From contig CAWFQK010000004.1 in assembly GCA_963817955.1 (NCBI GenBank), forward strand, positions 1,472,001 through 1,536,000: a stretch of 64,000 nucleotides of DNA, in the 5' to 3' direction. Within the stretch, counting starts at the first letter, position 1, and each line of letters starts with the position of its first letter. The notes under the pieces were generated by a model, which worked only from the letters and a program-made list of their open reading frames with translations, did no database searches and was not told where the DNA came from. A program made the position numbers and the translations under genes. Below, piece after piece: positions 1-19,359 of this stretch. Source of the stretch: an uncultured Gemmatimonadaceae bacterium. GTDB taxonomy: Bacteria > Gemmatimonadota > Gemmatimonadetes > Gemmatimonadales > Gemmatimonadaceae.

Positions 1-218
1 TCAGAGTGCACGCCGACGTCGGCGGCCTCCCGTTGGGCCGCGTGACAGACCAGGCAATTATTGCCCGCGTTCGCCTCGGGCGTCTGCCAAACCGTAGTCG
101 GTGCCGGGACCGCCGCCGCTGTGTGCATGGCCTGAGGCGCGGCTTGTGCCGGCACGAGGCTCGCGGCAAGCACGAGAGCGGTAGCGCCAAGGAGGCGAGT
201 GATCGTGGCGCGCATCAT
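1..218 (-). CDS. Periplasmic c-type cytochrome, N-terminal part only (runs off window start)
   Basis: Manual minus-strand translation: MMRATITRLLGATALVLAASLVPAQAAPQA...NNCLVCHAAQREAADVGVHS. Signal peptide, CxxCH, ATGA overlap with the cytochrome b stop. Not in the ORF track because it is truncated. Confidence 0.8.
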   Translation of the reverse strand, partial: MMRATITRLLGATALVLAASLVPAQAAPQAMHTAAAVPAPTTVWQTPEANAGNNCLVCHAAQREAADVGVHS

Positions 219-1450
219 CGTGACGTTGGAGCGGCAACGACCGTGTCGACGGGCGCCGCCGGCGTATATACCGGAGTGAGCTCGCTGGCAGTGGAGACGG
301 AGCGCAGATGCCACCCCGCGGCCCACGCCAACGCGAAGCCGAAGAAGAACGCGAAACCAAAACCCGCAACGAGCGGATGGCGTCGCAGTTGCCGGTCAGG
401 AGCACGATCGAACACGGGAAGAACCACGAGCGCGACACCCAGCAGTACGAACACGCCGAAGCCCCATGCGCCGAGATAATGAAGCAGCGCGCGTGAGACG
501 TCGGCAACGAACCACGTGGCATGCAACGCCGTGGGCGGATGGGCCGGGTCGGCCGGAGGAGCGATTTCGCGCGGCCACAGCACGGCAGCCGTGACTACGA
601 CGGCGACGACGAGCACGCCCACGCTCATGGAGCGCAAGAGGTGGTGCGGGAAGAATGGCACGCCCTCGCGATCACGATCTGCCGCTGGTGTCACGCCATC
701 GCGCACCACAGGCGCGAGGCCGTGCTTGCGCAGCAGCGTGAAGTGCAGCATCAGGAGCCCGAGCGCGGCCCACGGCAGCAGAATCACGTGGATCGCGAAG
801 AACCGGCTCAGCGTAGCGCCCGAAACCAGCGGATCGCCGCGAAGCAGTTCGGCCAGCCAGCCACCAATGAGCGGCACGCGACTGATGACATCCACACCCT
901 GCGTGGTGGTCCAGTACGCCCACTGGTCCCACGGCAGCAGATAACCGGTGGCGCCAAATCCCAATATGACGAGTAGCAGCAGCAGTCCGACGAGCCAGTT
1001 CGTCTCGCGCGGTGGCTTGTACGCGCGGCCGAAGAACACGCGCGCCATGTGCGCCAGCACGGCCACGACGATCAGGTTCGCACTCCACCGATGCAGATCG
1101 CGCATCAGCCATCCGAACGAAATGCCGGAGACGATGTGCTGAATGCTCTGGTACGCCTCTTCGGCCGATGGCCGGTAGTAGAACGAGAGGAGCACCCCCG
1201 TGGCGACGAGAATGATGAACAGCAGGTACGTGACTCCGCCGAACGCCTGGCGCCAGCCGACGTGGCGCGGAACCCGGTTGGCCAAGGCTTTACGAAATGC
1301 CTCGCCAATTGGTAGTTGGGTGTCGATGGGGCCATAGAGCAGGCCCACGAAGCGCAGCAGCCCGAGCAGGCTTGCATCGGTGCTCGCCTTGATGTCGGGC
1401 CAAAGACGCTGAGTCCAAATCCGAGCGATGCCGCTTTCGGAGTCTGCCAT
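215..1450 (-). CDS. Cytochrome b of Rieske/cytochrome b (bc/b6f-type) family, unsplit, with degenerate Qo motif
   Basis: Heme-ligand His pairs RDLHRWSANLIVVAVLAHMARV and FFAIHVILLPWAALGLLMLH; GYLLPWDQWAYW motif; PEWY position reads ATWF. Confidence 0.93.
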   Translation of the reverse strand: MADSESGIARIWTQRLWPDIKASTDASLLGLLRFVGLLYGPIDTQLPIGEAFRKALANRVPRHVGWRQAFGGVTYLLFIILVATGVLLSFYYRPSAEEAYQSIQHIVSGISFGWLMRDLHRWSANLIVVAVLAHMARVFFGRAYKPPRETNWLVGLLLLLVILGFGATGYLLPWDQWAYWTTTQGVDVISRVPLIGGWLAELLRGDPLVSGATLSRFFAIHVILLPWAALGLLMLHFTLLRKHGLAPVVRDGVTPAADRDREGVPFFPHHLLRSMSVGVLVVAVVVTAAVLWPREIAPPADPAHPPTALHATWFVADVSRALLHYLGAWGFGVFVLLGVALVVLPVFDRAPDRQLRRHPLVAGFGFAFFFGFALAWAAGWHLRSVSTASELTPVYTPAAPVDTVVAAPTSR

Positions 1451-1451
1451 G

Positions 1452-1922
1452 TCAGGGCCTCCCTACGTAGACGGCGCCATCGCGCACGAACGTGGAGTAA
1501 CGCTTCAGCGGCACCGTCGTGAGCCCGCGTACCACGTTGCCGTGCAGATCGTAGACGAGGTAGCCGCAGGCGGAGGCTACGCGCATCGACGTGGCATCCC
1601 AGTGCAAGATGCAGCCGTCGTTCGGCGCCGTGCCCTGGAGCGCCGTGTAGGTGGTCGAGTCCGCGCGAACCACAAGAATCACCTGGTCCCCCCAGCGAAC
1701 AATGCGGCTGCTTCCTACGGGCAGGCTCGTCTCAGGTGCCACGCGGAACGCGGGCTGGAGTTCGGGGAGCTGGAGCTGTTCGGGCGGCAGCAGGTAGACG
1801 AAGACGGCGAGGAGCGCGCCCATCAACATGAGTGAGAGAACTCCGCCGAGCAGGTATTCACCAAAGCCCGGCGTCCATGTCCGGGACGCAGGGATCGGCT
1901 CGGTTGTGTCAGGCATCACCAC
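1452..1922 (-). CDS. Membrane-anchored Rieske-fold protein lacking [2Fe-2S] ligands
   Basis: N-terminal TM helix; ALQGTAPNDGCILHW and ASACGYLVYDLHGNVVRG..PLKRY align to Rieske boxes I and II; GGAGG RBS; directly upstream of cytochrome b. Confidence 0.85.
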   Translation of the reverse strand: MVMPDTTEPIPASRTWTPGFGEYLLGGVLSLMLMGALLAVFVYLLPPEQLQLPELQPAFRVAPETSLPVGSSRIVRWGDQVILVVRADSTTYTALQGTAPNDGCILHWDATSMRVASACGYLVYDLHGNVVRGLTTVPLKRYSTFVRDGAVYVGRP

Positions 1923-2167
1923 TGGTCAGCCTCCGTTCTCGCTGATGTGCAACTGCGCTGCTTCCGCATAGCCAATCGTGCGATCGCTGGTGGTAGGTCG
2001 CTTGCGCGACGACATGACCAACCCGGCGACTGCTGTAACTCAGCGGTTTCCGGCCGCGTAGTCTGTCAGCGAAAACCAGAATCGCTGTCGGGAGTTAGCG
2101 TGCGGGTGGGAAGGCATGCTCCTACGTCATGCGCGAGAGCACATCCAACGGAAGATCATCGTGAGCG

Positions 2168-3751
2168 TTACTTCGAGAGCGGATCGGTGATGTGGCAGGT
2201 CAGGCACATGATCTTGTTACGGGCTGACATCCGACTCGCGTCGAAATTCTGTCCGTGCGGGTTCACCTTCAACCCGGTGCTTGCATGACAGCGCAGGCAA
2301 TCACGCTGCTGGTGACAGGTGGTGCAGCCGGTCATTCCTTGCCGCGCTGCTTGACCATGCTGTAGGAGCCAGAGCGGCTGCCCGGTGTGCACGGCACCTG
2401 TACGTGCTCCGCTCACGGTAATATTCGTCTTTTCATGGCACGAACGACAGAACGTCTCGGTGCGATGACAGGACGTACAGTTCTGGTCTTGCCCATACGC
2501 CACCGCCGCGTGCCGAGCAACGAAGTCGAGCGCATGATAGCGCTTGGAACCAGACCCCTCGTGACAGGTGGTACATTGGCGCTGCTCGTGACATCCCAGA
2601 CAGTCTAGCCGGCCGCTCGCTGCCGTCGACTTGTGCTGCGTCGCGAATCCCGCGGGATGCACTTTCGAGCCGGACCCCTCGTGACACGTCGCACATTGGC
2701 GCTGCTCGTGACATCCCAGGCAATCGACACGACCGCTCGCTGCCACCGACTTGTGCTGCATCGCGAATCCCAGAGGATGCGCCTTCACCAAAATCGTATC
2801 CCCGTGCGTCGCGCCGCGCGCGGGTAACCGAGCAAACGTCAGTCCGGTGTCAACACGCGCGACTCGCAACACGACACCCGGCGCCACTCCCGGCGCCGGC
2901 ATCGGAAGCCGTGCGATGACTGCGGCCGCGTTTGACCCTCTGTGACAGGACTGACAGCTCGGCTGCGTGTGGCAGTTGGCACAGCCCTCCGCTTGCTTTG
3001 ACGCAATGGTTCCGTGGTCGGCAGACCATGTCTCGCTCCGATGATTCACCGGGGTTGAATACGAGGCAGCTTTCCCCTTCATCAACTGAGCCACCCGCGA
3101 GTCGCTTCCCAACGCGCCGATCGCGGGAACGCGCGCCGCGTTCGGATGGCAGCGCGCGCAGCTCTCGCGAGCATGACACGTGGCGCAGCGCTCGACATCC
3201 GCGCTGGTTCGCGGCGCGTGCGCTGAGGCAAAATCCGCGCGTCCGTGCGATGTGGGTTTCGGGAAGGTCGCGATCGCGCTCGCGGGCAATGCGCGCGCCT
3301 CTGTTAGCGGGACATGGCACGTCTTGCATATCGCACTCTCTGCAAGATGTTCCGGTGCCTCATGGCAAGAGAGGCATACAGTGGGCGCTGCGCGCCGCAC
3401 CTGCATCCAACCCGCCTGCTTGTTTTCGGCATGACAACTCTGACACACTGCCGACGTTCCCTTCGCCTGGGGGTCCCGCGGATGCTCAACGTGTGCAAAC
3501 CGCAGGTTCGTCGGCTGCGGGGTGGCGCCCGACCATGTCGTGACCGCCACATCCCGGCCGTTATGGCACTGGGCGCACGTACTAGGCGCGGGCATCGCCG
3601 TGGTCGCGTCACCCGAGAGAATGCCCGCGTGGCACCCCGCGCAGTCCGGAAAGAGCTTCGCATGTTGCGCGTGCGGAAATCCCGATGACCGCTGCGCGTG
3701 CAAGGCCCCTGTCGACAGAAGCGCGATACCCAGCCAAGCGCCGATTCTCAT
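2168..3751 (-). CDS. Periplasmic multiheme cytochrome c (18 CxxCH motifs)
   Basis: Signal peptide; 18 CxxCH counted, many as closely spaced pairs preceded by His-containing linkers. Confidence 0.95.
   Translation of the reverse strand: MRIGAWLGIALLSTGALHAQRSSGFPHAQHAKLFPDCAGCHAGILSGDATTAMPAPSTCAQCHNGRDVAVTTWSGATPQPTNLRFAHVEHPRDPQAKGTSAVCQSCHAENKQAGWMQVRRAAPTVCLSCHEAPEHLAESAICKTCHVPLTEARALPASAIATFPKPTSHGRADFASAHAPRTSADVERCATCHARESCARCHPNAARVPAIGALGSDSRVAQLMKGKAASYSTPVNHRSETWSADHGTIASKQAEGCANCHTQPSCQSCHRGSNAAAVIARLPMPAPGVAPGVVLRVARVDTGLTFARLPARGATHGDTILVKAHPLGFAMQHKSVAASGRVDCLGCHEQRQCATCHEGSGSKVHPAGFATQHKSTAASGRLDCLGCHEQRQCTTCHEGSGSKRYHALDFVARHAAVAYGQDQNCTSCHRTETFCRSCHEKTNITVSGARTGAVHTGQPLWLLQHGQAARQGMTGCTTCHQQRDCLRCHASTGLKVNPHGQNFDASRMSARNKIMCLTCHITDPLSK
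2543..2780. repeat. 120-bp intragenic tandem duplication (40-aa diheme module x2)
   Basis: HPLGFAMQHKSVAASGRVDCLGCHEQRQCATCHEGSGSK vs HPAGFATQHKSTAASGRLDCLGCHEQRQCTTCHEGSGSK; DNA period exactly 120. Confidence 0.95.
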
Positions 3752-5214
3752 TGGATCCTCAATGCGCCGGGGCTACCAAGCGTCCACTCGAGCCGCACCG
3801 TGCCGCGCCGTTGATTCCAATTCACTAACTGTGGCGCGTCGCTGCCTGTGTGATGATACAGCAGCATATCGGCTACGAGGCGCAAATCGGGGAACAGGCG
3901 CACCGCAGCCTCTCCGCCTCCACCGACCACCCGGCCCGAACCGATCTGGAATTCATAGATGTTCTGAAAGGCCAATCCGTGGAGTGCGAGCGACAGGCCA
4001 TCGCTTGGCGCCCAACGCAGCGCAACGTCTTCATCGCTGGTCGACGCGCCGAAATCGATATCGGCGTTGTAGCTCCCCTGGACCGACCATGCGTTGGACG
4101 CCCGGAAGGAGCCGGTTGCGCCAACGCGCCAGCCGCTCGCGCGGAGCGGCAGGAACGCGACGCCACTCTGCGTGTCATCGTACGACCGTCGCCCGCCCGA
4201 TGCACCCAGGCTCACGCGAGCATCGCTGCTCGCCCAATCCAGGTTGCCGGAGACTTCTTTGTAGCCCACGGGAGCAAATGCGCCCCAGATCGTCCAGAGA
4301 TCGAAGTAGGGCGCGTAATGGCGTGCCTCGATCCGCGCCGTCGCCGATCGCGGCAGCACGAAGCGGAGCGCCAGAGAGAGATCGTTGAAGGTGCCGGTCG
4401 CCAGGTCGCGCGTGAGCTCGCCCGACAACGTGCTCTTCCCGGCATGCAGTTCGCCATCGGCGGCGACCCGCTCGGAATAGAGTCCGGCGCGATCTCGACG
4501 GATCTCGCGTTGGTACTGCACGCGGAACGCGCCGAGTGCATTGGGACGAAGCTGCGCCGTTGCCCCGATCACGTACGCACCATCGGTCGGCGGAAGATCT
4601 TCGACTGGCGCGAGCACACTAGCGTCGAGCGGTCGATTGAGCCCAGACACGAGGGTGCCACCACCATACACTTCGGCAGATACGCTACTCATCGGCCGCA
4701 GGAGCACCGATCCACCATCGAAGTTGAAGACGCCGAGCGACGAGGTGATCCACTGGCGGCCAAGCCTCGCACGCGCTCGGGAGCGGTCCATCTCGATGTA
4801 GGCATCGAGCGCATCGAACGTCTGCGTCGCTTGTGGCCACAGGTCGCGCGCATCGCCCGCTGCTCCGCGCGCCCGCAGTTGCGCGTGCACGCTGATTCCC
4901 TCACCGAAGCCCCAGCCCGTGACGTCAAGATCCTGGGTCATGGCGACGAGGGCGTTCCTGGACGCTGACCGAAGGAACGTGCAGTACTGGTTCAGCGCAT
5001 CGCATCGCGCGAGTATGCCGGACGTCGTGCGGCGATATACGCCGTACGCCGAATCCGTCGATGCATAGGCAATGCTATCGAGCACGAGCGGCTGCAGCTC
5101 GATGTATTGAGCCGAGCTGGCCCCCCTGATGACGACGCCCTGCGCCGCCGCCCTGCTCGCCGTCACGGCAACGAGGGCGGCCGTGAGGGCGATTCCTGCA
5201 ATATGGCGCCTCAT
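3748..5214 (-). CDS. Putative outer-membrane beta-barrel (porin partner of the multiheme cytochrome)
   Basis: Signal peptide; alternating amphipathic strands (RARLGRQW, FRVQYQREI, GTVRLEWTLG near C-terminus); ATGA overlap with the cytochrome gene. Confidence 0.75.
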   Translation of the reverse strand: MRRHIAGIALTAALVAVTASRAAAQGVVIRGASSAQYIELQPLVLDSIAYASTDSAYGVYRRTTSGILARCDALNQYCTFLRSASRNALVAMTQDLDVTGWGFGEGISVHAQLRARGAAGDARDLWPQATQTFDALDAYIEMDRSRARARLGRQWITSSLGVFNFDGGSVLLRPMSSVSAEVYGGGTLVSGLNRPLDASVLAPVEDLPPTDGAYVIGATAQLRPNALGAFRVQYQREIRRDRAGLYSERVAADGELHAGKSTLSGELTRDLATGTFNDLSLALRFVLPRSATARIEARHYAPYFDLWTIWGAFAPVGYKEVSGNLDWASSDARVSLGASGGRRSYDDTQSGVAFLPLRASGWRVGATGSFRASNAWSVQGSYNADIDFGASTSDEDVALRWAPSDGLSLALHGLAFQNIYEFQIGSGRVVGGGGEAAVRLFPDLRLVADMLLYHHTGSDAPQLVNWNQRRGTVRLEWTLGSPGALRIQ

Positions 5215-5537: not shown

Positions 5538-6002
5538 TCACCCAGGCTGGCCGGCGCGCCGCCGGAGCAGGCGACGAACCGCCACCACATTCTTGTCGAA
5601 CGTCGTCTGCTGCTCTGGCGTCAGCACGCTGCGCAGGTCGGTCAACGCCAGGCGGACATTCTTCACGCCCTCGCGCCGAACCGCAACCAACTCACGGCGC
5701 GCGGCGTGTGCAGCCGCTGTGTCTTTTGCCTGACGCGCCGCACGAAGCTTGGCAGCGATCGGCTTCGCCGATTCTGCGAGCTCCTTGAATTTCGGTGAGT
5801 ACTTGGCCGACACGAGGCCAAGGTCTGCTCGTTCGGTGTCAGTCAACACGATGCCACGCAGCGAGACACGGACGACGCGCGCTACGAATGGACGCTGCGC
5901 GGCCTGCTGGGATGTGGTGGTCTGGGCACCGCCCTGTGCGGCAGCGATGCTCACGGTGGTTAGCGTGAGCGCGGCGGCGAGGAGGAGAGGCGTACGGCGC
6001 AT
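5538..6002 (-). CDS. Spy/CpxP-like (LTXXQ) periplasmic helical protein
   Basis: Signal peptide; VLTDTE and VLTPEQQ motifs flanking a helical region. Confidence 0.65.
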   Translation of the reverse strand: MRRTPLLLAAALTLTTVSIAAAQGGAQTTTSQQAAQRPFVARVVRVSLRGIVLTDTERADLGLVSAKYSPKFKELAESAKPIAAKLRAARQAKDTAAAHAARRELVAVRREGVKNVRLALTDLRSVLTPEQQTTFDKNVVAVRRLLRRRAGQPG

Positions 6003-6147
6003 GTGGAATCCCAATTGTCTGGTATGTGAGCGCGTGTCGCACGCACTCCACACACCAGACGTTGGGTAGTGGGCTGGCGTTAAGGCTGCTGTAGAAGCTT
6101 CAAGGGAATTCCGATCCGCGCATCAGACCAATCGGAACCGATATCAG

Positions 6148-6600
6148 CTACTTGGTGCCCACGGCACTCTTGGGCTTTGGCGTCTGCGTTGGTGCGTCAG
6201 GATTGTGCAGCGCACGCATGGCGCTGTCCGACAGCATCGGCGTCACACCGTTGCGACCGGCGATCTCTTTGGACGCGCTGTCAGCCAGCGCCTTATTATG
6301 AAGCTTCTGGGCGACCATGTAGATGCCGAAGTACGGTGCAGCGTCACTCGGCGCCGCCGCTGCGGCCGTGCGGTACTCCTTGAGCGCAGACTCGAACGCG
6401 CCCGTGCGGAACTCCGCGTTGCCCTTGTCCAGCGCATTGCGCGCGGCTTCCGGCAATGCATCACGCACAGCAGACCTGCCGGTGGACGCCGACGTCGCGA
6501 CCAGCGGTTGCTTGGGCGGGTTCTGTGAACGCGAACAGGCGAGCAGGCCGGCGACCGCAGCCAGCACGACGGGAAACAAGCGCGGCGAAGAGACAAGCAT
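6148..6600 (-). CDS. Lipoprotein with TPR-like helices
   Basis: Lipobox LLAC; ALDKGNAEFRTGAFESALKEYRTA...APYFG resembles a TPR. Confidence 0.65.
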   Translation of the reverse strand: MLVSSPRLFPVVLAAVAGLLACSRSQNPPKQPLVATSASTGRSAVRDALPEAARNALDKGNAEFRTGAFESALKEYRTAAAAAPSDAAPYFGIYMVAQKLHNKALADSASKEIAGRNGVTPMLSDSAMRALHNPDAPTQTPKPKSAVGTK

Positions 6601-6867
6601 GGCGGACCTCAGTGTCGGAAATGGAGAACCAAACGACACACCCAGTATCCCGTCTCGGAGAGTCAATCACAATCGCCGGAACGCCACGTTCCACGTCAGG
6701 CAACGCCTCACGGCAGTGTCCGAAAACATGCCTTCGCAAATCAGTCTTATGCGTCTACTGGGCGGTGCCCATCGCAACAATTGTACACGGCACGCGTGAA
6801 CGCCGTAGCCAGCCTCGCACACCCTTTAGGTGGTGCGGCAATCCACGCCCAGTCAGGAGTCCGTTCC

Positions 6868-8058
6868 GTGCTTACTCCGCATCCGGTCGCGTGGTCGGAC
6901 GACGAGTCGCTCGCAACGCACCTCGAACATCGCGGCATCACTCGACGCGATTTCCTCGAGTTCTGCGGGCAGATGGCCGCCGTCCTGGGTCTCTCGACCA
7001 TCGCTGTGCCGCGCATCGCCGAGGCGATGGAGACCCTTCGCCGTCCCAGTGTGATCTGGCTGCAGTTGCAGGAGTGTACTGGATGTGTCGAAAGCGTGCT
7101 CCGGACGTCGGATCCGACGATCGGCGATCTCGTGCTCGACGTCATCTCGCTCGACTATCAGCATACGCTCATGGCCGCTGCGGGCACGGCGGCGGAGAAA
7201 GCGCTGACCGCCGCGCGAACGGCGAACGCCGGGAAGTATCTGCTCGTCGTCACGGGCTCGGTGCCGACGAATGCCAACGGAATGTATACGATGATCGGCG
7301 GGCAGACCGCGCGCTCGATTCTCGAAGCGACGGCCAAGGACGCCGCGGCGGTGATCGCTCTCGGCGCGTGCGCACACTGGGGCAGCGTGCAAGCGTCCAA
7401 GCCGAACCCCACGGGAGCCGTCGGCGTGTCGGAGATCGTCCGCGACAAACCGGTCGTCAACATTGCCGGCTGCCCGCCGATTGCCGATGTCGTGACCGCA
7501 ACGATCGTGCACTATCTCACATTCAATCGGCTGCCGGCGCTCGACTTCGACGGGCGGCCACGGTTCGCCTATCAGAACCGCATTCACGACCAGTGCTCCA
7601 AACGGGCGCACTACGACGCGGGCCAGTTCGTGCAAGCGTTCGATGACGAGGGCGCGCGTAAGGGCTACTGCCTCTACGAAGTCGGGTGCAAAGGTCCAGC
7701 GACTTTCTCGCCCTGCCCGATCTTCATGTGGAACTCGCGCACGAGTTGGCCGATTGGGGCGGGACATCCATGCATCGGCTGTACGGAACGGAACTTCTGG
7801 GACACCATGACACCGTTCTACAACCGACTGCCGAACATTGCGGGCATCGGCGTGGAACACACGGCCGACATCGTTGGCGTTTCGCTCGCGGCCGGCGCGC
7901 TGGCGGGCGTCGCCGCGCACGCCGCGGCCACGGGCATCTACCAGATCCAGACACGCCGCAAGCAGGTCACGCACGAAATCCCGAGTGCTGCCGCGCCGAA
8001 CGGCGCGTACGTGTCGCCCGAGGAATCCAAACAGCCGGCGCACCGGGGAGAGGAATGA
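6868..8058 (+). CDS. hyaA: [NiFe]-hydrogenase small subunit (group 1, Tat-exported, C-terminal membrane anchor)
   Basis: TRRDFLEFC Tat motif; ECTGCVES, GCPP, HDQC..CLYEVGCKGP, GHPCIGC; AGGAG RBS before GTG 6868. Confidence 0.95.
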   Translation: MLTPHPVAWSDDESLATHLEHRGITRRDFLEFCGQMAAVLGLSTIAVPRIAEAMETLRRPSVIWLQLQECTGCVESVLRTSDPTIGDLVLDVISLDYQHTLMAAAGTAAEKALTAARTANAGKYLLVVTGSVPTNANGMYTMIGGQTARSILEATAKDAAAVIALGACAHWGSVQASKPNPTGAVGVSEIVRDKPVVNIAGCPPIADVVTATIVHYLTFNRLPALDFDGRPRFAYQNRIHDQCSKRAHYDAGQFVQAFDDEGARKGYCLYEVGCKGPATFSPCPIFMWNSRTSWPIGAGHPCIGCTERNFWDTMTPFYNRLPNIAGIGVEHTADIVGVSLAAGALAGVAAHAAATGIYQIQTRRKQVTHEIPSAAAPNGAYVSPEESKQPAHRGEE

Positions 8059-8060
8059 CC

Positions 8061-9773
8061 ATGGCCAAGACAAGAATTGTGGTCGATCCCATCACGCGCA
8101 TCGAAGGCCACCTGCGCATCGAAGCGCAGACCGAGGCTGGCAAGATCACCAGCGCCTGGGCATCGGCAACGCAGTTCCGCGGGATCGAGATGATTCTGCA
8201 GGGCCGCGATCCACGTGACGCTTGGGCGTTCGCGCAGCGCATTTGCGGCGTCTGCACCGTGGTCCACGCGGTCGCCTCATGTCGCGCCGTCGAGGACGCG
8301 CTGGATATTCGCATCCCGGCGAACGCCAACACGATTCGCAATCTCGTTCTCGGAATGCAGTTCGTGCAGGACCACGTCATTCACTTCTATCACCTGCACG
8401 CACTCGACTGGGTGGACGTCGTGAGCGCGCTCTCGGCCAACCCCACGAAGGCGGCACAGATTGCCGCGTCGCTATCACCCTGGCCGAACAACTCGGCTAC
8501 GCACTTCAAAGAAGTGCAGGACCGCGTAAAGAAATTCGTCGGCTCTGGTCAACTCGGCATCTTCACGAACGGCTATTGGGGCCATCCGGCGTATAAGCTC
8601 CCGCCCGAAGTCAACCTCATCGCGGTCACGCACTATCTGGAAGCACTCGACTGGCAGCGCGACATCATTCGGCTCCACGCCATCTTCGGCGGCAAGAACC
8701 CGCACCCCAATTTTCTCGTTGGCGGCATGGCCTCGGCCATCAATCTCGATGAAGACGCGACGATCAACAGCGCGCGTCTCGCAGACGTGCAGGGGATGAT
8801 CACGCGGGCGCAACGGTTCGTTGAGCAGGTGTATTGGCCGGACCTCGTCGCGATTGCGGGCTACTACAAGGACTGGGCAGCGATCGGCGGCGGCGTCGGG
8901 AATTATCTCGCCGTCGGCGAGTTCCCCGAAACCGACATTCGCGACCTCAACTCGCTGTACTTCCCGCGCGGTGTGATCATGAACAAGGATCTCACCAAGG
9001 TCCATCCGTACGATCACACTGGCGTCTCCGAGTTCATCCACAGCTCGTGGTACGACTATGGGAAGGGCGACGTGGGCCTGCACCCGTACGAGGGCGAGAC
9101 GAACCCGAAGTACACCGGGCCCGACGCGCCCTGGACGTATCTGCAGGATTCCACGAAGTACTCGTGGATGAAGGCCCCGCGCTACAACGGCCACCCGATG
9201 GAAGTCGGACCACTGGCCCGTGTGCTGGTCGCCTACGCCTCGGGACACAAGGAAGTCCAAGCGATGGCGAATGACACGTTGAAAGCGCTCAATGCGCCCC
9301 CGACTGCGCTCTTCTCCACGCTCGGCCGCACGGCCGCACGCGGTATTGAGACGGTGCTCATCGCGCGCCGGCTCAGCACCTGGTACGATACGCTCGTCAA
9401 CCGCATCAAGGCCGGCGACGTGGCGACGTTCGCGCCGGCGAAGTTCGATCCTTCGACCTGGCCGGCCAAGTCGCGCGGCTACGGCGCACTCGACGCGCCC
9501 CGTGGGGCCCTCGGCCACTGGGTCGAGATCGAAAATCACAAGATCACACGGTACCAGTGCGTGGTGCCGACGACGTGGAACGCCTCGCCCCGCGACGCGC
9601 AGGGGCAGGTTGGACCGTACGAAGCGGCGCTCACGGACAACCACCCGCTGGCAATCCCCGATCAGCCGATCGAGATTCTGCGCACGATTCACTCGTTCGA
9701 TCCCTGCATCGCCTGCGGCGTGCACGTGCTCGACGCCACGGGCAAGGAGATCGGGGAGGTCACGGTGCAATGA
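8061..9773 (+). CDS. hyaB: [NiFe]-hydrogenase large subunit (group 1)
   Basis: DPITRIEGH; L1 QRICGVCTVVH; L2 SFDPCIACGVH plus cleavable C-terminal tail. Alternative start at 8055. Confidence 0.97.
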   Translation: MAKTRIVVDPITRIEGHLRIEAQTEAGKITSAWASATQFRGIEMILQGRDPRDAWAFAQRICGVCTVVHAVASCRAVEDALDIRIPANANTIRNLVLGMQFVQDHVIHFYHLHALDWVDVVSALSANPTKAAQIAASLSPWPNNSATHFKEVQDRVKKFVGSGQLGIFTNGYWGHPAYKLPPEVNLIAVTHYLEALDWQRDIIRLHAIFGGKNPHPNFLVGGMASAINLDEDATINSARLADVQGMITRAQRFVEQVYWPDLVAIAGYYKDWAAIGGGVGNYLAVGEFPETDIRDLNSLYFPRGVIMNKDLTKVHPYDHTGVSEFIHSSWYDYGKGDVGLHPYEGETNPKYTGPDAPWTYLQDSTKYSWMKAPRYNGHPMEVGPLARVLVAYASGHKEVQAMANDTLKALNAPPTALFSTLGRTAARGIETVLIARRLSTWYDTLVNRIKAGDVATFAPAKFDPSTWPAKSRGYGALDAPRGALGHWVEIENHKITRYQCVVPTTWNASPRDAQGQVGPYEAALTDNHPLAIPDQPIEILRTIHSFDPCIACGVHVLDATGKEIGEVTVQ

Positions 9774-10549
9774 GCACCCTCACTCCGCAGGATCTCGATC
9801 GCGAGCCACATTGGAAATCGCCTGATGACCGGCGGATGTCCACGACGTTCGAGGAGGCCATTCCCCAGGGCCTGTCCGAACACCGCTGGGTCTACCTGTG
9901 GCACTGGCCGCTTCGCGCCATGCACTGGATTGCCGCTGCCTCGATCGTTGTCCTCATCCTGACCGGCTTCTACATCGGCCGGCCGTACTTCATGTCCACC
10001 ACCGCCCAGTCGTCATTCACACTGCAGTGGGTACGCCTGGTGCACTTCATCGCTGCCGGTGTGTTGATTGCCACCGCGATCGTACGCACGTATTGGTTGT
10101 TTGCCGGCAACCGGTTCGAGCGGCTGCCGGCGCTCTTTCCGGTGCGGCCGCGCGACTGGCGCAATCTCGTACGGATGGTGCAGTACTACCTGCTCATCCA
10201 TCCAAAGCGCGCGCCGCGCTACCTCGGACACAACCCGCTGCAGCAGACGTTCTACACCTTCACGTACTTTGTGGCGGCACTGATGGTCCTGACCGGATTC
10301 ATTCTCATTGGACAGGCGAATCCCGGCGGCGTACTGATGCATACGTTTGGTCGCCTCGCTCCGGTGCTCGGCGGCATGCAGATGGTCCGCGTCATCCATC
10401 ATGTGGCCACGTGGTACTTCCCGATTTTCATCATCTTCCATGTCTATCTGGCCATTCGTGCAGACCTGCTGGAGCGCAGCGGAACGATGTCGTCTATGGT
10501 GAGCGGCGGGCGCTTCGTGCCCGTCGAGGAGCAGTATGCAGATGGTTGA
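9770..10549 (+). CDS. hyaC: Ni/Fe-hydrogenase b-type cytochrome subunit
   Basis: RAMHW, RLVHF, LGHNPLQ, IHH...FHVY; ATGA overlap with the large subunit. Confidence 0.93.
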   Translation: MSTLTPQDLDREPHWKSPDDRRMSTTFEEAIPQGLSEHRWVYLWHWPLRAMHWIAAASIVVLILTGFYIGRPYFMSTTAQSSFTLQWVRLVHFIAAGVLIATAIVRTYWLFAGNRFERLPALFPVRPRDWRNLVRMVQYYLLIHPKRAPRYLGHNPLQQTFYTFTYFVAALMVLTGFILIGQANPGGVLMHTFGRLAPVLGGMQMVRVIHHVATWYFPIFIIFHVYLAIRADLLERSGTMSSMVSGGRFVPVEEQYADG

Positions 10550-11054
10550 AGAACTGGTATCGGGCCTCGACGTCGTCATGGGCGTCGGGAACCCGCTCAT
10601 GGGCGACGACGGGCTCGGGATTGCCGCCGTCGCCGCGTTGCGTACGCGGTGGATGGATTCGACAAAGTTGGTCATCGTGGATGGCGGTACGTGGGGAATG
10701 AATCTGCTCCCCCTCATCGAGGGGGCGCGCCGGCTCATGATCATCGACGCGATCGATCGCGGCCTCCCGCCCGGCGCGCGGATCGAGCTCGAACGTGAGG
10801 AGATCCCGCGGTATCTCGGTCTCAAGCTGTCACCGCATCAGCTCGACCTGCGCGAAGTTCTGGCGCTCGCCGAGTTGCGCGGCACGCTGCCTGAGGAGAC
10901 GATCGCCATCGGCGTGCAGCCGGATCGCGTGGAATTGTCGCTCGAGCTCTCGCCCGTCGTTGCGGCGAAACTGCCCGGGCTCCTGAGCGACATCGAGGAG
11001 CAGCTCGTACGCTGGGGACACCGGCCTGTGGACACGCGCGTGATTCATGCATGA
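10542..11054 (+). CDS. hyaD: Hydrogenase maturation endopeptidase
   Basis: GVGNPLMGDDGLG, DGGT, IIDAI, SPHQ motifs. Confidence 0.92.
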   Translation: MVEELVSGLDVVMGVGNPLMGDDGLGIAAVAALRTRWMDSTKLVIVDGGTWGMNLLPLIEGARRLMIIDAIDRGLPPGARIELEREEIPRYLGLKLSPHQLDLREVLALAELRGTLPEETIAIGVQPDRVELSLELSPVVAAKLPGLLSDIEEQLVRWGHRPVDTRVIHA

Positions 11055-11307
11055 GATGGGTGTCGCGATGGAGATCTGCCGCATTGCCGAAGCACGCGTC
11101 GGCACCGAATCCGCGGCGTTCGTCACGCGGTTGGCGGTAACGATAGGCGACGAGGCGGGCGTCGAGCCGTCAAGCCTCGAGTTCTGTCTCGACGCGCTTC
11201 TGGCACAGCCGCCGTTCGGCGGCGCCACGGCGCAGATCATCTCAACGACGGGTGACACTCTTCGTTTGGACTACTTGGAGATCGACGATGACCGTGAGAG
11301 TGATTGA
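11047..11307 (+). CDS. hypA: HypA/HybF nickel metallochaperone, lacking the Zn-finger insert
   Basis: N-terminal MHE; IGDEAGVEPSSLEFC; C-terminal GDTLRLDYLEID; no CxxC motifs; 86 aa. Confidence 0.85.
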   Translation: MHEMGVAMEICRIAEARVGTESAAFVTRLAVTIGDEAGVEPSSLEFCLDALLAQPPFGGATAQIISTTGDTLRLDYLEIDDDRESD

Positions 11308-11977
11308 CATTCGCGAGCGCGTCATGGAGCAGAACGACCGGATCGCCGCGCTCGTCCGGCAACGTCTCGACGATTCGGGCGTTCCGGCGCTCAACCTCAT
11401 GTCGTCACCCGGTGCCGGCAAGACGTCGTTGCTCGAACGCACGCTCGCCGATCAGGGATCGCTGCTTCGCATCGCGACCGTCGTGGGAGACGTGCAGACT
11501 CAGAATGACGCCGACCGTCTCGCACGGCACACCGATCGCCTGGTGCAAGCTGTGGTCACGGGCGGGGCCTGCCATCTCGACGCGCGTCAGGTGATGGCGG
11601 CGCTCGATGCCATCGACCTGTACGACGTCGACCTGCTGTTCATCGAGAACGTCGGCAATCTCGTCTGCCCGGCGAGCTGGCAGCTGGGCGAAAGCGCGAA
11701 CGTCGTACTCTTTGCCGTCACCGAGGGCGAAGACAAGCCGCTCAAGTATCCGAAGATGTTTCAGAAGTCGCACTACGCGCTCATCACAAAGACCGACTTG
11801 CTGCCGTACCTCGACTTCGACGTCGATCGTGCGATCGGGTACCTACGTGACGTCAACCCAAATATCGATGTCATCCTGACCTCATCGCGCACAGGCGAGG
11901 GGCTCCACGATTGGTACACGCTGCTCCACCGGCATGTTCACGGCGCACGCCATGTGGAACCCGAAGTAGTCGCGTGA
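11288..11977 (+). CDS. hypB: Hydrogenase nickel incorporation GTPase HypB
   Basis: SSPGAGKT, GACHLDA, ENVGNLVCPA, EGEDKPLKYP, TKTD. Confidence 0.96.
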   Translation: MTVRVIDIRERVMEQNDRIAALVRQRLDDSGVPALNLMSSPGAGKTSLLERTLADQGSLLRIATVVGDVQTQNDADRLARHTDRLVQAVVTGGACHLDARQVMAALDAIDLYDVDLLFIENVGNLVCPASWQLGESANVVLFAVTEGEDKPLKYPKMFQKSHYALITKTDLLPYLDFDVDRAIGYLRDVNPNIDVILTSSRTGEGLHDWYTLLHRHVHGARHVEPEVVA

Positions 11978-14322
11978 TCGCATCTGCGAACCATTCTCGC
12001 TATCGCGTGCATGTCACGGGCGTCGTGCAGGGTGTCGGCTTCAGGCCCTTCGTCCACCGTCTGGCGAATCGGCACGGGTTGGCGGGATGGGTCCGTAACG
12101 AATCAGGCAACGTTGAGATCGTCGTCGCTGGTGCGCCGACCGATGTAAGTGCCTTTCTGGCCGACTTGGCCGGGGAAGCGCCGCCGCTTGCCCGAATCGA
12201 TCGTATCGACACGGAACCGGCTCCGTCGGCCACTGGGCCCGTCACCGGAGACGGTGAAGCCGACGACGTTGCGTTCAGAATTCTGGCAAGCGTATCGGTT
12301 GAAGGACGACGGCAGCCCGTGCCCGCCGATGTTGCTCTCTGTGCGGCGTGCGAGCGCGAACTCTTCGACCCCAGGGACCGCCGCGTCCGGTATCCGTTCA
12401 TCACCTGCACCGATTGTGGCCCGCGCTTCACGCTCATCGAGGCGTTGCCTTACGACCGCGAGCGCACCGCGATGCGCCGCTTCACACAGTGCCCCGCGTG
12501 CCAGGCCGAGTATCTCGCGCCGCACGACCGCCGGTATCACAGCGAAACGAACAGCTGTCCCGTCTGTGGTCCGCTGCTCTGGGCGCGTCTTCCCGGCGCG
12601 CCGACCACGCGACCGGCGGCGGATGACCCATGTATCCGCTCGTCGCTCAGCCTCGCTGCCGCGACGCTGCGCGGCGGCGGCATTGTCGCCATTCGCGGTG
12701 TCGGCGGTTTTCATCTCGCGGTGGACGCCACGAACGACGGCGCCGTACGACGCTTGCGCGAGCGCAAACATCGGGAAGCGAAACCGCTCGCCGTCATGGT
12801 TCGCACCATCGAGGAGGCCGCTGCGATCGCTCGGATCGGTGCAGGCGAGGCCGACCTCCTGACGAGCCCGGAACGTCCGGTGGTGCTCCTGCCGTGCCGC
12901 CGTGATGCGATGATCGCCCCCTCGGTTGCGCCCGGACTCGCGACGATCGGCGTCATGCTCGCCTATACCCCGCTGCACCATCTACTGATTGCCGGCATAG
13001 AGCGGCCGCTGGTGATGACGAGCGGTAATCGCAGCGAAGAACCAATTGCCGCGTCGATCACCGACGCGGCAGCTCGACTCGACGATATTGCCGACCTGTT
13101 TCTGCTGCACGATCGCGAGATCGAATCGCCGATGGACGACAGTGTCGTACGCGTGCAGGGCGACCGCACGATGATGATCCGCCGCGCCCGCGGTTATGCG
13201 CCGCTTCCAATCAAGTTGCCAGCCTCGACACCGCTGCCCATCCTCGCCGTTGGCGGCCATCTCAAGAACACATTCACGCTGGCGGTTGGCGACGAAGCAT
13301 TCGTCAGCCCGCATCTTGGCGATCTCGACGGGCTCGAGACGCTCGATCATTTTCGGACCACACTCGATCGGTACTCCCGCCTCTTTCGCGTCATTCCGAA
13401 AGTGGTCGTGCGCGATCTTCATTCCGGATACTTGAGCTCCCGGATTGCCGATGACTTGGACGCCGAGCATCGTATCCTGGTGCAGCATCATCATGCGCAC
13501 ATCGCAGCCGTCCTCGGCGAACACAAACACGACGGCCGGGTCATTGGCGTGGCATTCGATGGCACGGGCGCCGGGGACGATGGTACAGTGTGGGGCGCCG
13601 AGTTCTTGTCGGCGACGCAAGCACACTTCTCGCGCGTCGCGCACCTGCGATGTGCGCCGCTTCCCGGCGGCGACCTCGCGGTTCGTTCACCCTGGCGATC
13701 GGCACTTGGCTACCTCTCCCTTGAACCGAGCCTGGCAGCGTCATTCGCCTGCGCCTTCCATGGAGTCGACGAACGTGAACGTCGGGCAGCCGAGCACCAA
13801 CTCCGTCGACATCTCAATTGTCCGCTGGCGTCGTCCATGGGACGGTTGTTCGACGCGGCTGCGGCTATTCTCGGAGTATGCAGGTACGCGCGTTTCGAGG
13901 GTGACGCCGCCATGCAACTCGAAGCGCTCGCCGGATCATCGAATGAACGTCTACTGCCCTTCCCCATCACCCGGGATGCCGCTGGGGACTTGCAGCTCGA
14001 TCCCTTGCCCTTGCTCGACGCGCTCGCCTGCGGGCTTCGCCGCGGAGTCTCCCTGGCGTCGCTCGCCGCTGCATTTCACGAATCGGTGGCCGCCGCCACG
14101 GCAGCCCTCACCGCGGACCTTTGCGACCTGACCGGCGTCGCCGTCGTTGCTCTTGGTGGCGGCGTGTTCCAGAACGCGCGGCTGGGTGCGTCGCTACGCT
14201 CCCGCCTCGCAGACAAGGGCCTCACGGTCCTGATGCCCACGTTGCTGCCCGCCAACGATGGCGGGCTCAGTTACGGACAAGCAGTCACCGCGACGGCAAT
14301 CCTCCGCGAACGCGGCGAGTAG
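11974..14322 (+). CDS. hypF: Carbamoyltransferase HypF
   Basis: GVVQGVGFRPF acylphosphatase domain, two Zn fingers, QHHHAH, PANDGGLSYGQ. Confidence 0.96.
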   Translation: MIASANHSRYRVHVTGVVQGVGFRPFVHRLANRHGLAGWVRNESGNVEIVVAGAPTDVSAFLADLAGEAPPLARIDRIDTEPAPSATGPVTGDGEADDVAFRILASVSVEGRRQPVPADVALCAACERELFDPRDRRVRYPFITCTDCGPRFTLIEALPYDRERTAMRRFTQCPACQAEYLAPHDRRYHSETNSCPVCGPLLWARLPGAPTTRPAADDPCIRSSLSLAAATLRGGGIVAIRGVGGFHLAVDATNDGAVRRLRERKHREAKPLAVMVRTIEEAAAIARIGAGEADLLTSPERPVVLLPCRRDAMIAPSVAPGLATIGVMLAYTPLHHLLIAGIERPLVMTSGNRSEEPIAASITDAAARLDDIADLFLLHDREIESPMDDSVVRVQGDRTMMIRRARGYAPLPIKLPASTPLPILAVGGHLKNTFTLAVGDEAFVSPHLGDLDGLETLDHFRTTLDRYSRLFRVIPKVVVRDLHSGYLSSRIADDLDAEHRILVQHHHAHIAAVLGEHKHDGRVIGVAFDGTGAGDDGTVWGAEFLSATQAHFSRVAHLRCAPLPGGDLAVRSPWRSALGYLSLEPSLAASFACAFHGVDERERRAAEHQLRRHLNCPLASSMGRLFDAAAAILGVCRYARFEGDAAMQLEALAGSSNERLLPFPITRDAAGDLQLDPLPLLDALACGLRRGVSLASLAAAFHESVAAATAALTADLCDLTGVAVVALGGGVFQNARLGASLRSRLADKGLTVLMPTLLPANDGGLSYGQAVTATAILRERGE

Positions 14323-14349
14323 TCGCATCTACCGACCAGGAGGCGTCAC

Positions 14350-17874: not shown

Positions 17875-17876
17875 GC

Positions 17877-19341: not shown

Positions 19342-19359
19342 GGGTTTCTCGCCCTTCCC

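What the first reader, a model, noticed from the sequence alone, without database searches (positions are those of the whole stretch)
1..5214. Candidate trans-envelope electron conduit: porin + 18-heme cytochrome + cluster-less Rieske + Qo-degenerate cytochrome b + cytochrome c
Seen: five co-oriented genes encoding a beta-barrel-like protein translationally coupled to an 18-CxxCH cytochrome, then a Rieske-fold protein without Fe-S ligands, a cytochrome b with intact heme histidines but no PEWY, and a coupled c-type cytochrome. Known: porin-cytochrome pairs (MtrAB/PioAB/MtoAB type) carry electrons across the outer membrane, usually linked to quinones by CymA/NapC or ImcH/CbcL proteins, and Rieske/cyt b complexes need both the [2Fe-2S] cluster and the Qo site for the Q-cycle. 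Inference: a Rieske/cyt b scaffold has been repurposed as a non-bifurcating quinone link for extracellular electron transfer, or is the inactive half of a heterodimeric complex whose active half lies beyond the window edge. I do not know of a described system with this combination.
Basis: partly seen in the sequence, partly recalled or inferred. Interest (0 to 1): 0.88.

Follow-up and report, generated by a model that had tools for sequence, protein, structure and literature searches.

The report
Porin-cytochrome pair beside cluster-less Rieske/cytochrome b
A soil-type Gemmatimonadaceae bacterium encodes an outer-membrane barrel with an 18-heme cytochrome next to a cytochrome bc-like complex whose Rieske subunit has permanently lost its iron-sulfur cluster, which points to an unusual, still untested way of wiring the quinone pool to a heme chain.

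Summary
All five genes exist as described, on the minus strand. They are a 488-aa beta-barrel overlapping (ATGA) an 18-CxxCH cytochrome, a Rieske-fold protein lacking all four cluster ligands, a b6-type cytochrome b with four heme histidines and ATWF in place of PEWY, and a coupled c-type cytochrome cut by the window edge.

They form two separable modules, not one conserved operon. The barrel and cytochrome stay adjacent wherever the relative's DNA reaches far enough, among the 80 Gemmatimonadota loci read. The cluster-less Rieske/cytochrome b pair follows them in only 1 of 80 (L009).

The losses are ancient and fixed, not decay:
- 0 of 120 Rieske-like relatives keep the ligands.
- 0 of 120 cytochrome b relatives keep PEWY.
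- 120 of 120 keep the heme histidines.
- The Tat twin-arginine motif is also gone.

L009 shows what lies beyond the edge: a 9-heme, C-terminally anchored cytochrome and a 24-heme NapC-like cytochrome. There is no second Rieske/cytochrome b.

Other lineages put a canonical Rieske/cytochrome b or a b561-type cytochrome b, each with a related multiheme cytochrome, at the same place. That supports a quinone-linking role.

A precedent for the gene combination exists in Geobacter extHIJKLMNOPQS. The cluster-less family itself I did not find described. Verdict: partly supported; a new variant of a known kind.

The parts
3748..5214 (-). Outer-membrane beta-barrel (488 aa, signal peptide), the porin part of a porin-cytochrome pair
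   Evidence: No Pfam or NCBIfam hit. AF2 all-beta model, pLDDT 80.3. Foldseek PDB matches are large OM barrels. 275 relatives at E<=0.001, the named ones Gemmatimonadota. Predicted to bind the next gene's product.
2168..3751 (-). Periplasmic 18-heme c-type cytochrome (527 aa, signal peptide), start overlapping the barrel's stop (ATGA)
   Evidence: 18 CxxCH. Pfam Cytochrome_C7, MtrC/MtrF domain II/IV and Paired_CXXCH_1. Of 70 complete orthologues, 64 have 16 hemes and 4 have 18. Residues 382-519 contact the barrel in the complex model.
2553..2771 (-). Tandem duplication of a 120-bp (40-aa, two-heme) unit inside the cytochrome gene, which raises the heme count from 16 to 18
   Evidence: Tandem Repeats Finder: period 120, 1.8 copies, 87% matches. 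Orthologue heme counts.
1923..2167 (.). 245-bp intergenic gap between the two modules
   Evidence: No sigma-70-like promoter or terminator-like site was found in it. It aligns poorly with the 280-bp gap of L009. No Rfam match.
1452..1922 (-). Membrane-anchored Rieske-fold subunit without [2Fe-2S] ligands (156 aa)
   Evidence: Profile match to 8hn2_A at E 1.4e-11, with ligand Cys/His replaced and the disulfide Cys kept. AF2 pLDDT 90.2. Foldseek rmsd 1.2 A to 8hn2_A. 0 of 120 relatives have CxH...CxxH and 118 of 120 have exactly two Cys. Twin-arginine-like motif in 1 of 120.
215..1450 (-). Fused cytochrome b6 plus subunit IV-type cytochrome b (411 aa), heme histidines intact, PEWY replaced by ATWF, no cysteine
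   Evidence: Pfam Cytochrome_B at E 4.7e-50. Best PDB sequence matches are cytochrome b6. 120 of 120 relatives keep the four His and 0 of 120 have PEWY.
3..218 (-). N-terminal 72 residues of a c-type cytochrome, start overlapping the cytochrome b stop, cut by the window edge
   Evidence: Sequence junction and one CLVCH. 66% identical to the start of a 428-aa, 9-CxxCH, C-terminally anchored cytochrome in L009.

Best explanation
The region holds two modules that, in this lineage, probably work as one trans-envelope electron path.

Module 1 is an outer-membrane porin-cytochrome pair. A Gemmatimonadota-specific beta-barrel encloses the C-terminal part (about residues 380-520) of an 18-heme periplasmic cytochrome. 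The rest of the heme chain reaches into the periplasm.

Module 2 is an inner-membrane complex descended from Rieske/cytochrome b complexes.
- The cytochrome b keeps both b hemes.
- The Rieske-fold subunit is a cofactor-free structural piece.
- The cytochrome c1/f position is taken by a C-terminally anchored multiheme cytochrome (9 hemes in the L009 homologue).
- By inference from L009, a 24-heme NapC-like cytochrome follows it.

Without the cluster and without the PEWY glutamate the complex cannot run the bifurcating Q-cycle. I propose that it passes electrons between menaquinol/menaquinone and the c-heme chain through the b hemes or a remodelled P-side pocket. It would then behave like the diheme-b/multiheme-c quinol oxidoreductases of Geobacter (CbcL, CbcBA), not like bc1.

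Outward flow, to extracellular Fe(III), Mn(IV) or humics, is the likelier direction.

What is shown: the gene anatomy, the folds, the conservation of the losses and the neighbourhood statistics. What is inferred: the physical link between the two modules, the quinone site and the direction of flow.
For: Barrel-cytochrome pairing:
- The pair is adjacent in 79 of 80 loci. In the one exception, L016, the DNA held ends 34 bases after the barrel.
- The two genes overlap in ATGA.
- The complex prediction scored a median 0.78 against a best control of 0.00. That mark was reached by 116 of 157 solved complexes and 2 of 215 mismatched pairs. The runs agree in at least 72% of contacts and the partner's pLDDT is at least 68. 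My own alignments were used, so these counts hold only roughly.
- The contacts include the barrel's invariant loop 302-318.

The losses are fixed:
- 0 of 120 Rieske-like relatives have CxH...CxxH.
- In the search of 1.84 billion representatives, the 22 hits with E up to 1e-10 all lack the ligands. Canonical CTHxGC...CPCH proteins appear only below them.
- 0 of 120 cytochrome b relatives have PEWY. The surrounding stretch is conserved (P306 and W313 invariant; D317, V318, S319, R320 nearly so), and all four heme His are invariant.
- A [RK][RK]xF motif occurs in 1 of 120 family members, while RRx[FLIVM] occurs in 75 of 96 canonical Rieske proteins from the same search. Tat export of cofactor-loaded Rieske proteins is established knowledge, so this loss fits a cofactor-free protein.

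Functional link to the barrel-cytochrome pair:
- L009 has barrel, 16-heme cytochrome, Rieske-like, cytochrome b, 9-heme cytochrome and 24-heme NapC-like cytochrome in one direction.
- At the same position, 7 of 80 loci carry a 9-heme cytochrome plus a canonical Rieske (CTHLGC/CACH) plus a PEWY cytochrome b.
- Three of 80 (L001, L048, L067) carry an 11-heme cytochrome plus a Ni_hydr_CYTB-type cytochrome b next to the pair. A 14-heme cytochrome follows in L048 and L067, and a cytochrome cut off by the locus end follows in L001. Two more loci (L044, L045) have only a weak and distant b561 hit.
- The multiheme partners in all three designs are 28-35% identical to one another and each has a C-terminal membrane helix.
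- The window holds no NapC-like 17-heme or 8-heme cytochrome that could serve instead.
Against: - 69 of 80 loci have no Rieske/cytochrome b of any kind within about 9 kb of the barrel.
- Relatives of the cluster-less module sit on contigs of the same length as the contigs of L004, L007, L011, L034 and L077, yet outside those loci. This is an inference from equal lengths.
- In the barrel tree the window groups with L009, L010 and L012, and L010 lacks the module beside the pair, so the adjacency is labile.
- A 245-bp gap separates the modules, so they may be separate transcripts.
- No experiment bears on quinone binding, heme content, direction of flow or any contact between the modules.
- The complex model may lean on solved Mtr-type complexes and was folded without hemes.
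- The 24-heme cytochrome is inferred from one relative; the window ends before it.
Confidence: 0.5

Rival explanations
1. The two modules are unrelated neighbours. The barrel-cytochrome pair works with other inner-membrane partners, such as NapC-like multiheme cytochromes. The cluster-less Rieske/cytochrome b complex is a general Gemmatimonadota respiratory complex serving some other acceptor chain. A rearrangement brought them together in this lineage.
For: - The modules are adjacent in only 1 of 80 loci.
- The module appears to lie elsewhere on the same contig in at least five genomes, by contig-length match.
- In many loci a NapC-like 17-heme cytochrome lies directly upstream of the barrel.
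- Relative to L010 the barrel-cytochrome segment is inverted with respect to the TPR and hydrogenase genes.
- A 245-bp gap lies between the modules.
Against: - The same junction exists in L009, a different genome at about 60% barrel identity.
- Other lineages place other b-type cytochrome plus multiheme cytochrome modules at the same spot.
- The module's own cytochrome c is a 9-heme protein followed in L009 by a 24-heme one, an unusually long chain for a complex that feeds a soluble carrier.
- The window has no alternative inner-membrane multiheme cytochrome in 64 kb.
Confidence: 0.33
2. The same conduit runs inward. It takes electrons from extracellular Fe(II), Mn(II) or a reduced solid, through the heme chain and the b hemes, to reduce quinone at the cytoplasmic side. 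This would be a charge-separating step.
For: - The window lacks the 8-heme lipoprotein cytochrome (Pfam MtrC/MtrF domain) that most relatives encode upstream of the barrel.
- From my own knowledge, the Fe(II)-oxidising MtoAB and PioAB systems also lack a surface cytochrome.
- Two transmembrane b hemes without a working Qo site suit P-to-N electron transfer.
Against: - A periplasmic uptake [NiFe] hydrogenase with its own cytochrome b lies beside the pair here and in 21 of 80 loci. It supplies electrons to the quinone pool and does not consume them.
- Most relatives do have the putative surface cytochrome.
- The part of the operon left of the window is unseen.
Confidence: 0.12
3. The Rieske-like and cytochrome b genes are decaying remnants, or the inactive half of a heterodimeric complex whose active half lies left of the window.
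For: Only the missing motifs themselves.
Against: - The family is conserved at 55-84% identity for the Rieske-like protein and 59-79% for the cytochrome b among the listed relatives.
- The replacements are fixed, and the cysteines, heme histidines and flanking motifs are invariant.
- The reading frames are intact and translationally coupled.
- L009 has no second Rieske/cytochrome b downstream within about 5.5 kb.
Confidence: 0.03

Closest known systems
Geobacter sulfurreducens extHIJKLMNOPQS cluster (PMC5877670, passages read)
   Same: One cluster encodes a porin-like outer-membrane protein (ExtI), several multiheme cytochromes, a Rieske protein (ExtO), a b6-like cytochrome b (ExtP) with a subunit IV-like protein (ExtQ), and a further cytochrome c (ExtS). 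The window's cytochrome b scores 223 bits on the NCBIfam ExtP model.
   Different: - ExtO is described as a Rieske iron-sulfur protein, whereas here the ligands are gone.
- ExtP and ExtQ are split, whereas here they are fused.
- The ExtP (223.1 vs 290) and ExtQ (19.4 vs 150) cut-offs are not reached.
- The window's barrel matched no Pfam or NCBIfam model. I did not compare it directly with ExtI.
- Heme numbers and gene order differ.
Porin-cytochrome conduits MtrAB, MtoAB, PioAB and the Geobacter Pcc/Ext complexes
   Same: A large outer-membrane barrel is encoded next to, and predicted to enclose, a periplasmic multiheme cytochrome. MtrB (6r2q_B) is among the structural matches.
   Different: - There is no sequence-family membership: no Pfam or NCBIfam hit for the barrel, and the DmsE-family decaheme model scores 17.9 bits against a cut-off of 192.2.
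- The cytochrome has 16-18 hemes, not 10.
- No surface cytochrome gene lies in the window.
Geobacter inner-membrane quinol oxidoreductases CbcL and CbcBA (PMC12307469, passages read; subunit make-up recalled)
   Same: A membrane b-type cytochrome coupled to a multiheme c-type cytochrome links menaquinol to periplasmic hemes without a Rieske cluster. This is the proposed working analogy. Loci L001, L048 and L067 hold just such a b561-type module at the equivalent place.
   Different: The b subunit here belongs to the cytochrome b/b6 family (PF00033). The PF01292 match is 26.7 bits, below its 30.1 cut-off. It also keeps a Rieske-fold partner.
Canonical Rieske/cytochrome b complexes (bc1, b6f) and the multiheme-associated ones of anammox bacteria (PMC12954380, search listing and abstract start only; PDB 9rk4)
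   Same: The cytochrome b and the Rieske-fold subunit are both homologous to those of these complexes, and a membrane-anchored c-type cytochrome is the third subunit.
   Different: All four cluster ligands, the twin-arginine motif and the PEWY motif are absent throughout the family.

Membership tests
Rieske/cytochrome b complexes (bc1/b6f type) | Cytochrome b with two bis-histidine b hemes (four conserved His on helices B and D) | tested here: met
   His120/134/221/236 are present and invariant in 120 of 120 relatives. Pfam PF00033 at E 4.7e-50.
Rieske/cytochrome b complexes (bc1/b6f type) | Rieske subunit with [2Fe-2S] ligands CxH...CxxH | tested here: not met
   The ligand positions read A/S, N/T/S, S and S/T/G in the alignment to 8hn2_A. 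0 of 120 relatives have the pattern.
Rieske/cytochrome b complexes (bc1/b6f type) | PEWY (or a close variant with an acidic residue) at the Qo site | tested here: not met
   ATWF in the window. The column pattern is [S/A/T][T/S]W[I/V/L/F] apart from three relatives (SNWV twice, SFWV once), and 0 of 120 have PEWY.
Rieske/cytochrome b complexes (bc1/b6f type) | Rieske fold with a membrane anchor and the loop disulfide | tested here: met
   AF2 pLDDT 90.2 with an N-terminal helix at 18-42. Foldseek rmsd 1.2 A to 8hn2_A. The two Cys are invariant in 32 of 32. The disulfide itself is inferred.
Rieske/cytochrome b complexes (bc1/b6f type) | Bifurcating quinol oxidation (Q-cycle) | not testable with these tools
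   Needs enzymology. The sequence argues against it.
MtrAB/MtoAB/PioAB porin-cytochrome family | Sequence membership of the barrel in a curated MtrB/PioB-type model and of the cytochrome in a decaheme MtrA/DmsE-type model | tested here: not met
   The barrel has 0 Pfam and 0 NCBIfam hits at E<=0.1. The cytochrome scores 17.9 bits on TIGR03508 against a cut-off of 192.2.
Porin-cytochrome conduits in the functional sense | A large outer-membrane barrel encoded beside a periplasmic multiheme cytochrome that sits inside it | tested here: met
   Barrel model. Adjacent in 79 of 80 loci. Complex prediction 0.78 against a best control of 0.00. This is a prediction, not a measurement.
Porin-cytochrome conduits in the functional sense | Electron transfer across the outer membrane to or from an extracellular partner | not testable with these tools
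   Needs genetics and electrochemistry.
Geobacter ExtP/ExtQ (NCBIfam equivalogs) | Score at or above the curated cut-off | tested here: not met
   ExtP 223.1 bits against 290; ExtQ 19.4 against 150.

The most novel reading that the evidence does not exclude
Gemmatimonadota carry a phylum-wide, anciently fixed class of bc-type complex that has discarded the Rieske cluster, its Tat export signal and the Qo glutamate. It keeps both b hemes and has gained a long multiheme c subunit. This would be a non-bifurcating quinone:heme-wire oxidoreductase built on the complex III scaffold. In some lineages, this one included, it would serve as the inner-membrane end of an otherwise uncharacterised 16-18-heme porin-cytochrome conduit.
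Probability: 0.4. Interest if true: 0.8.

Novelty: new variant of a known kind. Interest (0 to 1): 0.62.

Why it matters
Rieske/cytochrome b complexes are defined by the Q-cycle, which needs the iron-sulfur cluster. A large, well-conserved family that keeps the scaffold but not the cluster would show what else this scaffold can do. It would give a natural test case for which parts of complex III serve structure and which serve catalysis.

It would also add a new candidate for a poorly understood step of extracellular electron transfer: how the quinone pool is connected to periplasmic heme chains. The carrier is a phylum abundant in soils whose anaerobic abilities are little known.

The barrel plus 16-heme cytochrome pair is found in 425 stretches of the species-representative genome set, and 21 of the 80 loci read have an uptake hydrogenase beside it. 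That suggests extracellular respiration, possibly fuelled by hydrogen, is widespread in Gemmatimonadota.

Tried and rejected
- Pseudogene or recent-decay reading: rejected on family-wide conservation.
- Heterodimer with an active half beyond the edge: rejected from L009.
- An alternative metal site using His107/His127 of the Rieske-like protein: rejected, because neither His is conserved.
- ExtP orthology: the score is no better than for generic cytochrome b6 (223 vs 221 bits), so only b6-type likeness is shown.
- 'PCC4' of He et al. 2017, which a 2026 paper cited as holding similar components: its inner-membrane protein is a different five-helix protein, not Rieske/cytochrome b (PMC5566968, passages read).
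- Promoter and terminator consensus scan: nothing in the 245-bp gap between the modules.
- Rfam over the whole window: no match.
- The gap aligned with the L009 gap: no convincing conservation.
- Protein Atlas for the barrel: only unnamed Gemmatimonadota clusters, with generic barrel families at 0.92.
- Literature searches for a description of cluster-less Rieske subunits or of this Gemmatimonadota system found none (papers checked by term search). These cover only the held open-access library and are not proof of absence.
- The careful tree search did not finish, so the quick IQ-TREE tree was used.
- A census of the cluster-less module's own neighbourhood could not be made.
Full report
WHAT IS THERE

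The left 5.2 kb of the window carries five genes on the minus strand. The organism is a member of Gemmatimonadaceae, since the named relatives of every protein are Gemmatimonadota.

From upstream to downstream:

1. 3748-5214, a 488-aa protein with a signal peptide and no Pfam or NCBIfam match.
2. 2168-3751, a 527-aa cytochrome with exactly 18 CxxCH motifs. Its ATG overlaps the preceding stop in ATGA.
3. A 245-bp gap.
4. 1452-1922, a 156-aa protein whose only family signal is a weak match to cytochrome b6f iron-sulfur subunit models (E about 1e-6).
5. 215-1450, a 411-aa cytochrome b (Pfam Cytochrome_B at E 4.7e-50). It starts one base after the preceding stop.
6. 3-218, the first 72 residues of a c-type cytochrome. 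Its ATG overlaps the cytochrome b stop, and the window edge cuts it.

THE BARREL AND ITS CYTOCHROME

With an alignment of 33 relatives, AlphaFold2 gives an all-beta model with mean pLDDT 80.3. Its best PDB matches are large outer-membrane barrels: the FimD and PapC ushers, TonB-dependent receptors, and MtrB of the Mtr complex at rank 15. All are at 7-12% identity. It is thus a barrel by fold but belongs to no named family. The protein Atlas also finds only unnamed Gemmatimonadota clusters.

A scan of one genome per species found 425 stretches encoding a relative, and 80 loci were kept.

- In 79 of the 80 the multiheme cytochrome follows directly. In the remaining one, L016, the held DNA ends 34 bases after the barrel.
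- Of 70 complete orthologues, 64 have 16 hemes, 4 have 18, one has 14 and one is truncated.
- The window's 18 come from a tandem duplication of a 120-bp, two-heme unit at 2553-2771.

A complex prediction used barrel residues 25-488 and cytochrome residues 20-527, both with alignments.

- It scored a median 0.78 against a best control of 0.00.
- That mark was reached by 116 of 157 solved complexes and 2 of 215 mismatched pairs.
- The runs agree in at least 72% of contacts and the partner's pLDDT is at least 68.
- My own alignments were used, so the calibration holds only roughly.
- The fold was made without hemes, and solved Mtr-type complexes may help it from memory.

In the model, cytochrome residues 382-519 lie against the barrel, including its invariant loop around LWTIWGAF. 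I read this pair as a porin-cytochrome conduit in the functional sense. It is not a member of the MtrAB family.

THE RIESKE-LIKE PROTEIN

A profile of 32 relatives matches the soluble Rieske domain of Chlorobaculum tepidum (8hn2_A) at E 1.4e-11, and cyanobacterial b6f Rieske subunits at about 1e-5. The AlphaFold2 model (pLDDT 90.2) has an N-terminal membrane helix and a beta domain. It superposes on 8hn2_A at rmsd 1.2 A over 96 columns.

In the HMMER alignment, CTHLGC corresponds to A-P-N/T-D-G-C, and CPCH corresponds to S-P/A-C-S/G. Both ligand cysteines and both ligand histidines are replaced, while the two cysteines that form the loop disulfide in canonical proteins remain.

- Among 120 relatives, 0 have a CxH...CxxH pattern and 118 have exactly two cysteines.
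- His107 and His127 of the window protein are not conserved, so an alternative metal site is unlikely.
- In a search of 1.84 billion representatives, the 22 hits with E up to 1e-10 all lack the ligands. Canonical proteins appear only below them.
- A twin-arginine-like motif is present in 1 of 120 family members. RRx[FLIVM] occurs in 75 of 96 canonical Rieske proteins from the same search.

Cofactor-loaded Rieske proteins are exported by Tat (established knowledge). The loss of the signal is therefore independent support for a protein made without a cluster.

THE CYTOCHROME B

Residues 57-246 align with cytochrome b6 of solved b6f complexes at E about 1e-54, and the rest resembles subunit IV and the C-terminal part of long cytochromes b. 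The spacing His120-His134 and His221-His236 is of the b6 type. There is no cysteine at all, so there can be no covalently bound heme ci (the role of that cysteine is recalled knowledge).

- In 120 relatives all four histidines are invariant.
- The PEWY position reads [S/A/T][T/S]W[I/V/L/F] in all but three relatives, and never PEWY.
- The neighbouring residues (P306, W313, D317, V318, S319, R320) are invariant or nearly so.

This is a remodelled site under selection, not a decayed one.

WHAT LIES BEYOND THE EDGE

L009 has Rieske-like and cytochrome b proteins 71% and 73% identical to the window's. It carries, in one direction:

- an 8-heme putative lipoprotein cytochrome;
- the barrel;
- a 16-heme cytochrome;
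- a 280-bp gap;
- the Rieske-like protein and the cytochrome b;
- a 428-aa cytochrome with 9 CxxCH and a C-terminal membrane helix;
- a 737-aa cytochrome with 24 CxxCH and a NapC/NirT-type N-terminus.

The window's truncated cytochrome c is 66% identical to the start of the 9-heme protein. No second Rieske/cytochrome b follows.

ONE UNIT OR TWO

The five-gene order is not conserved. The cluster-less module is beside the barrel-cytochrome pair in 1 of 80 loci, and 55 of the 77 loci with a cytochrome hit have at least 4 kb of sequence downstream of it.

Members of the module's family are listed on contigs of exactly the lengths of the contigs of L004, L007, L011, L034 and L077, but outside those loci. 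This is an inference from equal lengths.

In a quick maximum-likelihood tree of the barrels, the window groups with L009, L010 and L012 (SH-aLRT 91). L010 has a hydrogenase operon, not the module, after the pair. The module is thus a widespread Gemmatimonadota complex in its own right, and the adjacency is lineage-specific.

Other lineages nevertheless put other inner-membrane b-type modules at the same place.

- Seven loci have a 9-heme cytochrome, a canonical Rieske (CTHLGC...CACH; Pfam Rieske) and a PEWY cytochrome b.
- Three (L001, L048, L067) have an 11-heme cytochrome and a Ni_hydr_CYTB-type cytochrome b. A 14-heme cytochrome follows in L048 and L067, and a cytochrome cut by the locus end follows in L001.
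- Two more (L044, L045) have only weak, distant b561 hits.
- Three have a Rieske with a cytochrome b fused to a c domain within a few kb.

The multiheme partners of the first two designs and of the window's design are 28-35% identical to one another, and all have a C-terminal membrane helix.

This exchange of the b-type partner around a common anchored multiheme cytochrome is my main argument for two points. The cluster-less module can act as the quinone-side end of the conduit. In this setting the scaffold is also used as a simple diheme-b anchor, which would explain why the cluster became dispensable.

The window has no other gene with two or more CxxCH in 64 kb. The NapC-like 17-heme and the 8-heme cytochromes that most relatives have upstream of the barrel are therefore absent on the side that can be seen.

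CONTEXT

Diverging from the cluster, after a Spy/LTXXQ-like gene (5538-6053) and a TPR gene (6148-6666), lies a [NiFe] uptake hydrogenase operon. It has a small subunit, a large subunit, its own b-type cytochrome, the maturation protease and hypA, hypB, hypF and hypD, with an unscanned ORF at the hypC position. A hydrogenase large subunit lies within the locus in 21 of 80 relatives. This fits hydrogen as one electron source for outward transfer, but it is only circumstantial.

COMPARISON WITH WHAT IS KNOWN

The gene combination has a described precedent in Geobacter extHIJKLMNOPQS (PMC5877670, passages read). A 2026 metagenome paper notes in passing that some porin-cytochrome clusters include petB and petC (PMC13264449, passages read).

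Functionally the closest analogues are the Geobacter inner-membrane cytochromes CbcL and CbcBA (PMC12307469, passages read; subunit make-up recalled).

I found no description of a cluster-less Rieske subunit family, or of this Gemmatimonadota conduit, in the held library. That library omits most subscription journals.

VERDICT

The novel element is the fixed, phylum-wide cluster-less, PEWY-less bc-type complex with a multiheme c subunit. Its coupling to the porin-cytochrome pair is plausible but rests on neighbourhood patterns alone.

Noticed in passing
window 6781-15770 (+): A [NiFe] uptake hydrogenase operon: small subunit with a twin-arginine motif, large subunit, its own Ni_hydr_CYTB cytochrome b (within 9557-10549), HycI protease, HypA, HypB, HypF and HypD, with an unscanned 103-aa ORF at the hypC position. 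A hydrogenase large subunit lies within the locus in 21 of 80 relatives of the barrel.
   Followed up: partly
window 2553-2771 (-): A 120-bp tandem duplication (87% matches) inside the cytochrome gene adds two hemes. The family norm is 16 hemes (64 of 70 complete orthologues).
   Followed up: yes
L001 12034-14246; L048 10205-14615; L067 3503-7526: A split CbcL-like module beside the barrel-cytochrome pair: an 11-heme membrane-anchored cytochrome and a b561/Ni_hydr_CYTB-type cytochrome b. A 14-heme cytochrome follows in L048 and L067. In L001 the next cytochrome is cut by the locus end.
   Followed up: partly
proteins P0377, P0385, P0399, P0412: A second, separate group of about 216-aa Rieske-like proteins. 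Tyr or Phe replaces the first ligand His (CTY/CSY/CTF), and in one CPCC replaces CPCH. Close relatives (P0386, P0387) keep CTH...CPCH. This may be another case of partial cluster loss.
   Followed up: no
L009 7377-8849 and most loci upstream of the barrel: An 8-heme cytochrome with a lipoprotein-like signal (…AFAAC) and a Pfam MtrC/MtrF domain II/IV match, likely the surface-exposed partner. It is absent from the window's 64 kb.
   Followed up: partly
window 5538-6053 (-) and 6148-6666 (-): A Spy/LTXXQ-like periplasmic chaperone gene and a TPR gene lie upstream of the barrel in the same direction. In most near relatives a TPR homologue lies between the cytochrome and the hydrogenase, so the barrel-cytochrome segment is inverted here relative to L010-type loci.
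   Followed up: partly
window 16960-24218: A cluster typical of a low-oxygen or stress response: two tandem-domain universal stress proteins, BON and CBS domain proteins, acetate kinase, a pyridoxamine-oxidase-like protein and a PAS-GAF histidine kinase.
   Followed up: no
L021 6851-7474; L037 10419-11906: The cytochrome orthologue of L021 is cut to 207 aa with 6 hemes, possibly by a frameshift or assembly error. That of L037 has 14 hemes.
   Followed up: no
window 32147-35944 (+): A 1265-aa outer-membrane protein with a CarboxypepD_reg domain and a large beta-barrel domain (TonB-dependent-receptor-like). It is unrelated to the finding.
   Followed up: no
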